A stretch of 64,000 bases of DNA from the NCBI RefSeq assembly GCF_056712565.1, contig NZ_CM160072.1. One strand, written 5' to 3'. The position numbers were made by a program. Position 1 is the stretch's first letter; every line of letters begins with the position of its first letter. This document shows positions 36,430-39,400 of the stretch, one piece after another.

Positions 36430-39400
36430 TAACAAAAGCAATTTTTCCGGCTATCTGTATACAAAAACGCCGTAAAGTTTGAGCGAAGTCAATAAACTCT
36501 CTACCCATTCAGGGCAATATCTCTCTTGCAGGTGAATGCAACGTCAAGCGATGGGCGTTGCGCTCCATATTGTCTTACTTCCTTTTTTGAATTACTGCAT
36601 AGCACAATTGATTCGTACGACGCCGACTTTGATGAGTCGGCTTTTTTTTGCCTGTTATTTATCAGCGTCTACCCTTTAAGAGTCCACCCAATGACCGGAG
36701 GGAAATATGACGACACTTATTTATTTGCAAATTCCTGTCCCTGAACCGATTCCTGGCGATCCTGTTCCAGTACCCGATCCGATCCCTCGCCCGCAACCCA
36801 TGCCTGACCCACCACCCGATGAAGAACCGATTAAATTGTCGCATCGTGAGCGTAGATCTGCGAGGATACGCGCCTGCTGACTTTGCGTCGATGACCACGA
36901 GAATAGATTGTGACCGCTTTTTCTACCCTGAATGTTTTGCCTCCCGCCCAACTCACAAACCTTAATGAGTTGGGTTATTTAACCATGACGCCGGTGCAGG
37001 ACGCCGCGCTTCCGGCGATCCTTGCCGGAAAAGATGTTCGCGTGCAGGCGAAAACCGGCAGCGGCAAAACGGCGGCTTTTGGCCTCGGCTTGTTACAGCA
37101 AATTGATGCGTCGCTATTTCAAACCCAGGCTTTAGTGCTGTGTCCTACGCGTGAACTGGCGGATCAGGTGGCAGGTGAATTGCGTCGGCTGGCGCGTTTT
37201 CTGCCAAATACCAAAATTTTGACGTTGTGCGGTGGTCAACCGTTCGGTATGCAGCGTGATTCGTTGCAACATGCGCCGCATATTATCGTGGCAACGCCGG
37301 GCCGTTTGCTGGATCACCTGCAAAAAGGCACTGTATCACTGGATGCGTTGAATACGCTGGTGATGGATGAGGCCGACCGCATGCTGGATATGGGATTTAG
37401 CGACGCCATTGATGATGTCATCCGTTTTGCGCCAGCATCTCGGCAGACGCTTCTGTTTTCGGCAACCTGGCCGGAGGCCATCGCCGCAATCAGCGGAAGA
37501 GTGCAACGCGATCCTTTAGCGATTGAAATTGACTCAACAGATGCTCTGCCACCTATTGAACAACAATTTTATGAGACATCCAGCAAAGGCAAAATTCCTC
37601 TGTTGCAACGGTTATTAAGCTTGCATCAGCCATCCTCTTGCGTGGTGTTTTGCAATACCAAAAAAGATTGCCAGTCTGTCTGCGACGTGCTGAATGAAGT
37701 AGGGCAAAGTGCATTGTCGTTACACGGCGATCTGGAGCAACGCGATCGCGATCAGACCCTGGTACGTTTTGCTAACGGTAGCGCCCGTGTACTGGTCGCG
37801 ACTGATGTTGCTGCGCGTGGTCTGGATATAAAATCGCTTGAGCTGGTGGTGAACTTTGAGCTGGCGTGGGACCCTGAAGTTCATGTACATCGCATCGGTC
37901 GTACAGCTCGTGCAGGAAATAGCGGTCTGGCGATCAGTTTCTGTGCCCCGGAAGAAGCACAGCGGGCCAATATCATTTCTGACATGTTGCAGATAAAACT
38001 TAACTGGCAAACGCTGCCAGCGAATAGTTCCATTGTGCCGCTGGAAGCAGAAATGGCAACGTTGTGTATCGATGGCGGGAAAAAAGCCAAAATGCGCCCG
38101 GGTGATGTATTAGGTGCGCTGACAGGAGACATCGGGCTTGATGGCGCAGATATTGGCAAAATCGCCGTGCATCCGGCGCATGTTTATGTCGCGGTGCGTC
38201 AGGCTGTTGCTCATAAAGCATGGAAACAGCTACAGGGCGGGAAGATTAAAGGAAAAACGTGCCGGGTGCGGTTATTAAAATAATGAAATGTTGAATCGCA
38301 GGGTGCAAGAGTAAACATCTTCTTCGGGATTGCCGGATGCGACGCTGGCCGCGTCTTATCCGGCCTCCATAAGAGTAGCCCGATACGCTTGCGCATCGGG
38401 CGCTATCCTGGTTATTTCACTTCAACCACATTCAGCCGTAACTCATCCAACTGATTTTCATCTTCTTCAGGCTGCCAGCCCGACGGTTGTAGTGGGATCT
38501 CTTCGCGATCAAACGCCAGATCACCCCCGTTAACCACTTCAGAACCGTGAGTAATGCCTTTAAAATCGAACAGGTTGGTATCGCACAGATGTGACGGCAC
38601 CACATTCTGCATCGCGCTGAACATCGTCTCGATACGCCCCGGATAACGTTTATCCCAGTCACGCAACATGTCAGCAATCACCTGACGTTGCAGGTTAGGC
38701 TGTGAACCGCACAGGTTGCACGGAATAATCGGGAACGCTTTTGCATCGGCAAAGCGCTGAATATCTTTCTCGCGGCAGTAGGCCAGCGGACGAATCACGA
38801 TATGTTTGCCATCATCGCTCATCAGTTTCGGAGGCATACCTTTCATCTTGCCACCGTAGAACATATTTAAGAACAGCGTTTGCAGGATATCGTCACGATG
38901 GTGACCCAGCGCGATCTTCGTCGCCCCCAGTTCCGTTGCGGTGCGATAAAGGATACCGCGACGAAGACGAGAACACAGTGAGCAAGTGGTTTTGCCCTCC
39001 GGAATCTTCTCTTTCACGATACCGTAAGTGTTCTCTTCAACAATCTTGTACTCAACGCCCAGCGTTTCAAGATACTCGGGCAGAACGTGTTCCGGGAAGC
39101 CCGGTTGCTTTTGATCGAGGTTAACAGCCACCAGCGAAAAATTGATTGGCGCGCTTTGCTGCAAATTGCGCAGAATCTCCAGCATGGTATAGCTGTCTTT
39201 ACCCCCGGAGAGGCAAACCATGATGCGATCGCCTTCTTCAATCATATTGAAGTCAGCAATGGCTTCGCCCACGTTACGACGCAGACGTTTTTGTAATTTG
39301 TTCAGGTTGTATTGTTCTTTCTTTGTAATTTGTTGATTTTCTTGCATTATTTCAGTTCTCTGGTACTAAATGGGGCATATTGAGGGCAAACTTTGCAACT

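What the first reader, a model, noticed from the sequence alone, without database searches (positions are those of the whole stretch)
36707..36880. Proline-rich 57-codon upstream ORF with strong RBS between fnrS and dbpA
The ORF has a near-consensus Shine-Dalgarno (GGAGGG, 4-nt spacing) and encodes a peptide with 18 prolines, including PPP and multiple xPxP motifs that typically stall ribosomes and need EF-P. It ends 30 nt before the GTG start of dbpA, a ribosome-biogenesis RNA helicase. This would suit a translation-sensing leader peptide, or a genuine small protein. Proline codons vary in synonymous choice, which is more consistent with a protein-level constraint than a simple nucleotide repeat. 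It is below the ORF-track size cutoff.
Basis: inference. Interest (0 to 1): 0.45.

Follow-up and report, generated by a model that had tools for sequence, protein, structure and literature searches.

The report
Known small protein gene ynaL
The proline-rich 57-codon ORF upstream of dbpA is ynaL, an annotated and experimentally detected E. coli small-protein gene of unknown function, so the finding is real but not new.

Summary
The ORF at 36707-36880 (+) is real. It has ATG, SD GGAGGG with a 4-nt spacer, and PPP at codons 35-37. It has 16 prolines, not 18, and 29 nt separate its stop from the dbpA GTG.

It is ynaL (b4743), annotated in 5392 of 5426 complete E. coli genomes. It matches Pfam PF23677 over its full length. 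VanOrsdel et al. 2018 detected it as an epitope-tagged protein.

Across 68 Enterobacteriaceae loci, the proline-rich core (codons 18-41) shows protein-level purifying selection as strong as in dbpA (pN/pS 0.13 versus 0.10). So a polypeptide is selected, not a repeat.

The last ~17 codons are frozen at the nucleotide level instead. They stay conserved in 12 species where the ORF stops earlier, in Kluyvera (which lacks ynaL), and in part in more distant taxa. There the element reads as an extended -10 promoter, TGcTAGAAT, with a GC-rich discriminator. I infer that dbpA has its own promoter inside the ynaL 3' end.

That inference, the variable stop position and an unchanged dbpA start region in taxa without ynaL all argue against an obligatory leader-peptide role. 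An EF-P requirement for YnaL synthesis is predicted from the DPPPD motif but is untested. Function remains unknown. Novelty: already known. Interest: low.

The parts
36528..36649 (+). fnrS sRNA gene with its intrinsic terminator (stem 36622-36641 plus T-run). It is the upstream neighbour.
   Evidence: Rfam RF01796, 134.8 bits. Terminator scan. K-12 annotation.
36648..36675 (+). Candidate ynaL promoter: TTGCCT (36648-53), 16-nt spacer, TACCCT (36670-75), overlapping the fnrS terminator T-run. This is inference only.
   Evidence: The two hexamers are conserved across genera, with a spacer that varies in sequence and mostly keeps its length. TAnnnT is retained (TACGCT, TACCTT). The site falls below the consensus-scan threshold.
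36697..36702 (+). Shine-Dalgarno GGAGGG of ynaL, 4 nt before the ATG.
   Evidence: GGAGG-like SD plus ATG is conserved in ynaL-bearing genera.
36707..36880 (+). ynaL coding sequence: 57 aa, 16 Pro, TGA stop.
   Evidence: Annotated as ynaL in 5392 of 5426 E. coli genomes, with the locus table. Identical to the K-12 YnaL peptide. Pfam PF23677, E = 2.2e-40.
36758..36829 (+). Proline-rich core, codons 18-41 (DPVPVPDPIPRPQPMPDPPPDEEP), under protein-level purifying selection. Predicted to be extended, with no helix or strand.
   Evidence: Codon positions 1 and 2 have entropy of 0 or close to 0 at most codons, while position 3 has 0.3-1.9 bits, mostly above 0.9. pS 0.609, pN 0.081. AF2 shows no DSSP elements and pLDDT of about 90 for residues 21-40.
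36809..36817 (+). PPP codons (CCA CCA CCC) within DPPPD. This is a predicted EF-P-dependent stall site.
   Evidence: P36 is kept in 65 of 68 loci and P37 in 67 of 68, so the full PPP is kept in 64 of 68. Stalling rules from PMC4176338. EF-P dependence was not measured.
36830..36845 (+). Block A (ATTAAATTGTCGCATC, codons 42-46), constrained at the nucleotide level. It contains the -35-like TTGTCG (36836-41).
   Evidence: pS 0.05. Near-zero entropy at nearly all positions of the block; the exceptions are L44 position 1 and H46 position 2. Retained in Kluyvera, which lacks ynaL.
36854..36880 (+). Block B (AGATCTGCGAGGATACGCGCCTGCTGA, codons 50-58), constrained at the nucleotide level. Putative dbpA promoter: extended -10 TGc-GAGGAT (36859-67) plus GC-rich discriminator ACGCGCC (36868-74). 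The inferred start site is about 36874-76.
   Evidence: pS 0.01. Kept in register in 12 species where ynaL stops at codon 47 or 48. In all 81 loci, TG, A at hexamer position 2 and T at position 6 are invariant, 33-47 nt before the dbpA start. The homologous ATGACC-17-TGcTAGAAT in Dryocola is called by the promoter scan. No transcription start site data were obtained.
36899..36912 (+). dbpA translation start region: weak SD GAGAA and a GTG start.
   Evidence: The same CGAGA...GTG arrangement occurs in taxa with and without ynaL.
36910..38283 (+). dbpA (ATP-dependent RNA helicase DbpA), the downstream neighbour.

Best explanation
The ORF is ynaL, a known, translated small-protein gene restricted to Enterobacteriaceae.

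Shown:
- It is annotated, and its product has been detected experimentally.
- The 24-residue acidic PxP array plus DPPPDEEP is under purifying selection at the amino-acid level, as strong as in the neighbouring helicase gene. The selected product is therefore a polypeptide, predicted to be extended and polyproline-II-like rather than globular.
- The last ~17 codons are conserved as DNA, not as protein.

Inferred:
- YnaL synthesis needs EF-P to pass DPPPD.
- The 3' end of ynaL doubles as dbpA's own extended -10 promoter with a GC-rich discriminator. Most dbpA mRNA would then start at about 36874-76 and would not carry the ynaL ORF.
- On this reading, the tight spacing to dbpA reflects a coding sequence that runs across a promoter, not a leader-peptide circuit. 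YnaL would act as a free peptide whose partner is unknown.
For: Identity:
- 100% match to E. coli ATCC 11775, with ynaL annotated under the match. 5392 of 5426 genomes carry it.
- K-12 b4743.
- Pfam PF23677, full length, E = 2.2e-40.
- 162 homologues, and every source-named one in the listing comes from Enterobacteriaceae genera.

Translation:
- SPA-tag immunoblot and tetracycline ribosome profiling (PMC6001520).
- Ribo-seq quantification as a 'previously known sORF' (PMC10746267).

Protein-level selection:
- Codon-position entropies.
- Core pS 0.609, pN 0.081, against dbpA pS 0.610, pN 0.062.
- Most length variants are in-frame repeat indels.
- AF2 model is extended, with no secondary structure.

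Nucleotide-level tail and promoter:
- Block A pS 0.05 and block B pS 0.01.
- Block B persists after early stops, in Kluyvera without ynaL, and as TGcTAG(A/C)(A/C)T in Cedecea, Dryocola, Siccibacter and Enterobacter sp. Ag1 (L081); of these, only Dryocola (L076) has an fnrS hit, and that lies ~2 kb upstream.
- The dbpA start region is unchanged without ynaL.
Against: - I found no transcription start site data for this locus. The internal dbpA promoter is therefore inference.
- In E. coli the hexamer GAGGAT matches only 3 of 6 consensus positions, and the -35-like TTGTCG lies 20 nt away. The simple scan does not call it.
- Complete invariance of 27 nt is more than a promoter normally needs, so something else may bind there.
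- A fusion covering the zntB-dbpA interval gave low activity (PMC1802558).
- ynaL and dbpA are syntenic, on the same strand, only 29 nt apart with no terminator between them. Co-transcription and a cis effect therefore remain possible.
- No function or partner of the peptide is known.
Confidence: 0.6

Rival explanations
1. ynaL is a cis-acting leader ORF that senses translation capacity or EF-P. Ribosomes pause at DPPPD. When EF-P or Pro-tRNA is limiting, transcription and translation uncouple, Rho loads on the C-rich ynaL RNA and terminates before dbpA. Alternatively, ynaL translation helps ribosomes reach the weak dbpA start.
For: - Strong SD on ynaL against a weak SD and GTG start on dbpA, with a 29-nt gap and no intervening terminator.
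- DPPPD combines the strongest stalling contexts (PMC4176338).
- The ynaL RNA is 42% C and 18% G, in the top 0.06% of 100-nt windows for C minus G.
- EF-P loss causes Rho-dependent termination downstream of polyproline in reporter constructs (PMC5021804).
- The synteny with dbpA holds across many genera.
Against: - The stop-to-start distance ranges from 14 to 63 nt.
- Kluyvera, Cedecea, Dryocola and Siccibacter lack ynaL but keep the same dbpA start region.
- A promoter-like element for dbpA lies inside the ynaL 3' end.
- No stable or covarying RNA structure: z = 0.28, and only a 6-bp invariant helix.
- Selection covers 24 residues, far more than a stall motif needs.
- PPP is lost in 4 of 68 loci.
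- No experimental data exist.
Confidence: 0.2
2. YnaL is a trans-acting peptide that works with DbpA or with the maturing 50S subunit, for example as an extended proline-rich ligand. That would explain why it stays next to dbpA.
For: - Conserved adjacency to dbpA in many genera.
- Protein-level selection.
- Extended PxP rod with one conserved PRP motif.
- VanOrsdel et al. raise possible functional linkage with the adjacent gene.
Against: - The adjacency is also explained by overlap with the promoter.
- Kluyvera keeps dbpA without ynaL.
- No sequence relative in the PDB.
- No interaction data.
- The core is acidic, unlike cationic ribosome-binding proline-rich peptides (own knowledge).
Confidence: 0.15
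3. YnaL is a sequence-specific nascent-chain arrest peptide of the SecM, TnaC or MifM type. A stalled ribosome would remodel the downstream mRNA to control dbpA.
For: The amino-acid sequence is conserved rather than merely the codon composition. The ORF lies upstream of a gene related to ribosome assembly.
Against: - PPP lies 21 codons before the stop and about 93 nt before the dbpA start.
- A ribosome stalled there would be too far upstream to cover the dbpA start region (inferred from these distances and the ribosome footprint size; own knowledge).
- No conserved structure links the two regions.
- The full-length tagged protein accumulates.
Confidence: 0.04
4. The ORF is a chance product of a C-rich nucleotide repeat and is not a gene.
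For: The sequence is low-complexity and repetitive, and repeat-mediated indels occur.
Against: - Saturated synonymous change alongside near-invariant amino acids.
- Conserved SD and ATG.
- The protein was detected experimentally.
- A Pfam family exists.
Confidence: 0.01

Closest known systems
YnaL of E. coli K-12 (b4743; Pfam PF23677 'Protein YnaL-like'; NCBI 'proline-rich small protein YnaL')
   Same: Identical 57-aa sequence and the same fnrS-ynaL-dbpA locus. Full-length Pfam match.
   Different: Nothing of substance. The stop codon here is TGA, against TAA in K-12.
Proline-codon leader ORFs mgtP and mgtL of the Salmonella mgtCBR and mgtA leaders (EF-P- and Pro-tRNA-sensitive attenuation; PMC5299641 and PMC6460261 come from that literature and were not read; details from own knowledge)
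   Same: A short ORF with consecutive proline codons upstream of another gene. Translation speed should depend on EF-P.
   Different: - Those leaders are very short and work through alternative stem-loops in a long leader RNA.
- ynaL is 57 codons, with 24 residues under strong amino-acid selection.
- ynaL has no conserved alternative structure, and its stop position varies.
- The downstream gene probably has its own promoter inside the ORF.
EF-P-maintained transcription-translation coupling at polyproline followed by rut sites (Elgamal, Artsimovitch and Ibba 2016, PMC5021804)
   Same: Polyproline followed by or embedded in C-rich, G-poor RNA upstream of another gene.
   Different: The effect was shown with artificial constructs and cadA. 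ynaL and dbpA are not among the candidates in Table 1 of the section read. It has not been tested here.
PPP as a translational throttle in low-copy proteins such as CadC (cited in PMC4176338; details from own knowledge)
   Same: A single conserved PPP in an otherwise ordinary coding sequence would make the protein's level depend on EF-P.
   Different: CadC is a large membrane regulator with a known function. YnaL is a 57-aa peptide with no known function.
TonB proline-rich spacer (Pfam PF16031; NCBIfam NF008084)
   Same: Alternating X-Pro repeats, consistent with a rigid extended segment.
   Different: The similarity is compositional only: Pfam E = 0.75, and NCBIfam 20.8 bits against a cut-off of 315. 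YnaL has no TonB N- or C-terminal domains.

Membership tests
YnaL family (Pfam PF23677) | Full-length match to the family profile | tested here: met
   E = 2.2e-40, 136.8 bits, residues 1-57 against model positions 1-57.
YnaL family (Pfam PF23677) | Orthologous position between fnrS and dbpA in Enterobacteriaceae | tested here: met
   Same locus in K-12 and ATCC 11775. A proline-rich ORF lies upstream of dbpA in 69 of 81 loci. fnrS lies directly upstream in the loci checked.
YnaL family (Pfam PF23677) | Evidence that the ORF is translated | not testable with these tools
   Published SPA-tag immunoblot and tetracycline ribosome profiling (PMC6001520). Ribo-seq table in PMC10746267.
Proline-codon or EF-P-sensing leader ORF (mgtP/mgtL type) | Consecutive proline codons in a short ORF upstream of the regulated gene | tested here: met
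   PPP at codons 35-37, with the ORF ending 29 nt before dbpA.
Proline-codon or EF-P-sensing leader ORF (mgtP/mgtL type) | The ORF lies on the same transcript as the regulated gene (true 5' leader) | tested here: inconclusive
   No terminator lies between them. However, a conserved extended -10-like element for dbpA sits inside the ORF's 3' end. No transcription start site data were obtained.
Proline-codon or EF-P-sensing leader ORF (mgtP/mgtL type) | Alternative RNA structures or a terminator whose formation depends on ribosome position | tested here: not met
   Leader fold z = 0.28. RNAalifold gives one 6-bp helix with no covariation, and its duplex energy is not better than background.
Proline-codon or EF-P-sensing leader ORF (mgtP/mgtL type) | The regulated gene depends on the leader, so the two co-vary in presence and geometry | tested here: not met
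   dbpA keeps the same SD and GTG start in 12 loci without ynaL. The stop-to-start distance ranges from 14 to 63 nt.
Proline-codon or EF-P-sensing leader ORF (mgtP/mgtL type) | Downstream expression changes with EF-P or Pro-tRNA or on leader mutation | not testable with these tools
   No data found. ynaL is absent from the held (truncated) supplement text of the EF-P/EfpL ribosome-profiling paper.
Ribosome arrest peptides (SecM, TnaC, MifM) | The arrest site is placed so that the stalled ribosome remodels the downstream start region | tested here: not met
   PPP lies about 93 nt before the dbpA GTG, and no conserved structure connects them.
TonB | Score above the curated cut-off, and presence of the TonB domains | tested here: not met
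   20.8 bits against a cut-off of 315, covering only the proline-rich stretch. TonB_N E = 0.75.

The most novel reading that the evidence does not exclude
ynaL is a dual-use locus. Its C-rich polyproline ORF needs EF-P to be read, and it runs into and across dbpA's own promoter. EF-P-dependent ynaL translation would decide whether upstream transcription reaches that promoter, where it could supply read-through dbpA mRNA or occlude the promoter. If translation fails, Rho would stop the upstream transcript. This would couple translation capacity to the level of a 50S-assembly helicase. A variant reading is that the conserved peptide itself acts on DbpA or on immature 50S particles.
Probability: 0.12. 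Interest if true: 0.55.

Novelty: already known. Interest (0 to 1): 0.15.

Why it matters
As a discovery it does not matter, because the gene is annotated, has a Pfam family and was validated in 2018. What remains open is its function.

The comparative analysis here adds three useful constraints:
- The peptide's proline-rich core is selected as strongly as an enzyme.
- The basic C-terminal tail is probably a by-product of overlapping dbpA control DNA.
- dbpA probably does not depend on ynaL as a leader.

If the EF-P link or a DbpA/50S link were shown, ynaL would be a natural example tying translation capacity to ribosome assembly. Nothing here demonstrates that.

Tried and rejected
1. The dbpA leader as a mimic of 23S rRNA hairpin 92, which is DbpA's target. 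The local alignment score was 20, against 20.9 +/- 4 for shuffles. Rejected.
2. FnrS pairing with the ynaL-dbpA RNA or with block B. The energies were no better than background: for the ynaL-dbpA leader, 93% of background segments paired at least as well, and for block B 26% of background 27-mers did. Rejected.
3. Block A pairing with the dbpA GUG. RNAalifold gives a 6-bp helix, but there is no covariation and the duplex energy is ordinary, with 26% of background 17-mers pairing at least as well. Unsupported.
4. A stable leader RNA structure. z = 0.28.
5. Blocks A and B as a dispersed motif. They are single-copy in every E. coli genome.
6. Sigma-70 consensus scan of the window region. It found no promoter-like site. 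My readings of sigma-E, sigma-54 and CsrA-site matches for block B were weak, and the distant taxa carry a plain TAGAAT-type -10 there.
7. NCBIfam gave only a compositional TonB hit. A PDB sequence search found nothing.
8. Searches for transcription start site, 3'-end or EF-P profiling data on this locus:
   - The Adams 2021 supplements had no hit.
   - Thomason 2015 is not held.
   - The nanopore paper has no supplements held.
   - The Cappable-seq and SMRT-Cappable-seq supplements had no hit.
   - The Weaver 2019 preprint has no supplements held.
   - The EfpL paper's supplement is truncated and has no ynaL row.
9. Literature search. Only VanOrsdel 2018 discusses YnaL in its main text; the other listed 'ynaL' hits were unrelated chemistry, algal or plant papers.
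Full report
**Observation**

The window carries a 174-nt ORF on the + strand at 36707-36880, with an ATG start and a TGA stop.
- GGAGGG lies at 36697-36702, followed by a 4-nt spacer.
- The peptide is MTTLIYLQIPVPEPIPGDPVPVPDPIPRPQPMPDPPPDEEPIKLSHRERRSARIRAC.
It has one PPP (codons 35-37) and 12 overlapping PxP triplets.
- All four proline codons are used: CCT 6, CCG 4, CCA 3, CCC 3.
- 29 nt separate the stop from the dbpA GTG at 36910.
- 16 prolines in 34 residues is the maximum among 502 stop-free segments of at least 50 aa in all six frames of the window. 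The next highest is 11.
- fnrS lies immediately upstream (Rfam RF01796, 36528-36645, 134.8 bits), with a strong terminator.

**Identity**

- The region is 100% identical to E. coli ATCC 11775, and the ORF is the annotated gene ynaL ('protein YnaL' or 'proline-rich small protein YnaL').
- A 601-nt query covering the region matched 5392 of 5426 complete E. coli genomes, with ynaL annotated under every listed match.
- In K-12 it is b4743, at 1409308-1409481.
- The peptide matches Pfam PF23677 'Protein YnaL-like' end to end, E = 2.2e-40.
- A search of 5.8 billion proteins returned 162 relatives. All 120 listed carry PF23677, and every source-named one is from an Enterobacteriaceae genus.
- VanOrsdel et al. 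2018 (PMC6001520) named the gene. They detected the chromosomally SPA-tagged protein by immunoblot, noted that it had appeared as an unidentified positive in a tetracycline ribosome-profiling screen, and pointed out its position next to dbpA. The published sequence is identical to the one here.
- A later Ribo-seq study lists ynaL among 'previously known sORFs', with ribosome-footprint and RNA values (PMC10746267).
- I found no paper in the library that assigns a function.

**Comparative anatomy**

I fetched 80 dbpA loci from different Enterobacteriaceae species.
- A proline-rich ORF in the same position is present in Escherichia, Citrobacter, Salmonella, Enterobacter, Klebsiella, Raoultella, Kosakonia, Leclercia, Lelliottia and others.
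- It is absent in Kluyvera, Cedecea, Dryocola, Siccibacter and one further isolate.

The gene falls into distinct zones.
- **Variable stretches.** The N-terminal ~17 codons and codons 47-49 vary freely.
- **Protein-constrained core.** In codons 18-41 (DPVPVPDPIPRPQPMPDPPPDEEP), first and second codon positions are invariant or nearly so at most codons, and third positions are close to saturated at most codons. Pooled pairwise Nei-Gojobori proportions are pS 0.609 and pN 0.081. These are indistinguishable from the first 100 codons of dbpA, at pS 0.610 and pN 0.062. That is the signature of selection on a polypeptide.
- **Length variants.** Most length variants are in-frame repeat duplications or deletions of 10-15 residues; a few rare variants have a frameshifted or replaced C-terminus (L004).
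- **Predicted shape.** An AlphaFold model built on 27 homologues has no helix or strand and a pTM of 0.22, but is confident (pLDDT about 90) over residues 21-40. This fits an extended polyproline-type rod, not a globule.

**The 3' end is different**

- Codons 42-46 (block A, 36830-36845) and codons 50-58 (block B, 36854-36880) are almost frozen at all three codon positions. pS is 0.05 for block A and 0.01 for block B.
- In 12 species the ORF stops at codon 47 or 48 (…SHR* or …SR*). Block B still follows in the same register.
- Kluyvera species have lost everything from the ynaL SD to about codon 40, with fnrS ending about 120 nt before dbpA. They keep blocks A and B with the same 9-nt spacing.
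- In Cedecea, Dryocola, Siccibacter and 'Enterobacter sp. Ag1' (L081), fnrS is not adjacent: Dryocola L076 has it ~2 kb upstream, and no hit appears within the ~2.5 kb held upstream for the others. The homologous element there reads ATGACC-N17-TGcTAG(A/C)(A/C)T followed by ACGCGCC; L081 has the -10 and discriminator but no clear ATGACC.
- The consensus scan calls this element as a sigma-70 promoter with an extended -10 in Dryocola.
- Across all 81 loci, the TG, the A at hexamer position 2 and the T at position 6 are invariant. The discriminator is GC-rich. The hexamer ends 33-47 nt before the dbpA start.
- My inference is that block B is dbpA's own promoter. In E. coli it would be TGc-GAGGAT at 36859-67, with discriminator ACGCGCC and a start site at about 36874-76, and ynaL reads across it.
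- On this reading, the basic tail RSARIRAC is largely a translation of promoter DNA.
- Weak points: GAGGAT matches only 3 of 6 consensus positions, the -35-like TTGTCG is 20 nt away, and the scan does not call the E. coli site. I could not retrieve any transcription start site data. Grainger et al. found only low activity for a zntB-dbpA intergenic lacZ fusion, with a marginal FNR effect (PMC1802558).

**The leader-peptide idea**

- PPP, and especially D-PP and PP-D contexts, stall ribosomes without EF-P (PMC4176338).
- Loss of EF-P lets Rho terminate downstream of polyproline in reporter constructs (PMC5021804).
- The ynaL RNA is strikingly C-rich and G-poor (42% C, 18% G), in the top 0.06% of 100-nt windows.

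The comparative evidence leans against an obligatory cis role.
- The ynaL stop lies 14 to 63 nt from the dbpA start.
- dbpA keeps the same weak SD and GTG start where ynaL is absent.
- The leader does not fold better than shuffles, z = 0.28.
- RNAalifold finds only one invariant 6-bp helix, between block A and the dbpA GUG. Its energy is not unusual.
- Selection covers 24 residues rather than just a stall motif.
- PPP is PSP or PPQ in 4 of 68 loci.
- If the internal promoter is real, most dbpA mRNA would lack the ORF.

Alternating xPxP is not a recognised EF-P-dependent stalling motif. I rate a physiologically meaningful cis effect at about 0.2.

**Other ideas tested and dropped**

- Mimicry of 23S hairpin 92 by the dbpA leader.
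- FnrS pairing with the ynaL-dbpA RNA.
- A dispersed copy of blocks A and B elsewhere in the genome.
- Relatives in NCBIfam or the PDB beyond compositional TonB similarity.

**Verdict**

The object is the known gene ynaL, so novelty is 'already known' and interest is low.

The best-supported account has four parts:
- ynaL is a bona fide small protein whose acidic, extended proline-rich core is what selection maintains.
- Its synthesis is predicted, but not shown, to need EF-P.
- Its 3' end overlaps dbpA control DNA, most likely the dbpA promoter.
- Its molecular partner is unknown.

The most novel reading still open is an EF-P-gated interplay between ynaL translation and the dbpA promoter, or a YnaL-DbpA/50S partnership. 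I give that roughly a 0.12 probability.

Noticed in passing
window 36648-36675: TTGCCT-N16-TACCCT lies between the fnrS terminator T-run and the ynaL SD. It is conserved across genera with a variable spacer, and TAnnnT is kept as TACGCT or TACCTT. It is a candidate ynaL promoter. However, 'CTACCCT' is also kept in Kluyvera, which lacks ynaL and has a shorter spacing, so its role is unclear.
   Followed up: partly
window 36830-36880 (blocks A and B): The 3' third of ynaL has frozen synonymous sites. It persists in lineages where the ORF ends earlier or is deleted. It aligns with an extended -10 promoter plus a GC-rich discriminator in distant taxa. The discriminator hints at stringent (ppGpp/DksA) control of dbpA.
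   Followed up: yes
L070, L071, L073, L074, L075, L080 (Kluyvera and relatives), about 120 nt upstream of dbpA: A roughly 130-150-nt stretch from the ynaL SD to about codon 40 is missing, while fnrS, 'CTACCCT' and blocks A and B are retained. ynaL is therefore dispensable in that lineage.
   Followed up: partly
P0001, P0088, P0112, P0053; L004 2300-2500: In-frame repeat-mediated length variants of YnaL occur. E. coli has a 68-aa form (an 11-aa duplication) and 46- and 42-aa deletion forms. A 70-aa Salmonella form with a 10-aa duplication was seen on 181 contigs.
   Followed up: partly
window 36474-36497: The FNR box AAAGTTTGAGCGAAGTCAATAAAC was reported in 2007 as the 'dbpA' ChIP target of FNR. 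It sits about 30 nt upstream of the fnrS Rfam match (36528), consistent with it being the fnrS promoter site.
   Followed up: partly
window 36733-36832: The ynaL RNA is 42% C and 18% G. Only 8 of 12780 100-nt windows on either strand reach this C minus G value. It would be a good Rho loading site if left untranslated.
   Followed up: partly
window about 35388-35435: A 15-codon ORF, annotated 'protein YnaN', lies just upstream of zntB. It is another tiny annotated upstream ORF in the same neighbourhood.
   Followed up: no
window 36878-36880: The ynaL stop codon is TGA here but TAA in K-12 MG1655. This is a single-base difference inside the otherwise invariant block B.
   Followed up: no
window about 39399 onward (L001 5500-5601): A truncated tyrosine recombinase/integrase pseudogene lies just beyond ttcA, suggesting a prophage or island remnant boundary.
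   Followed up: no
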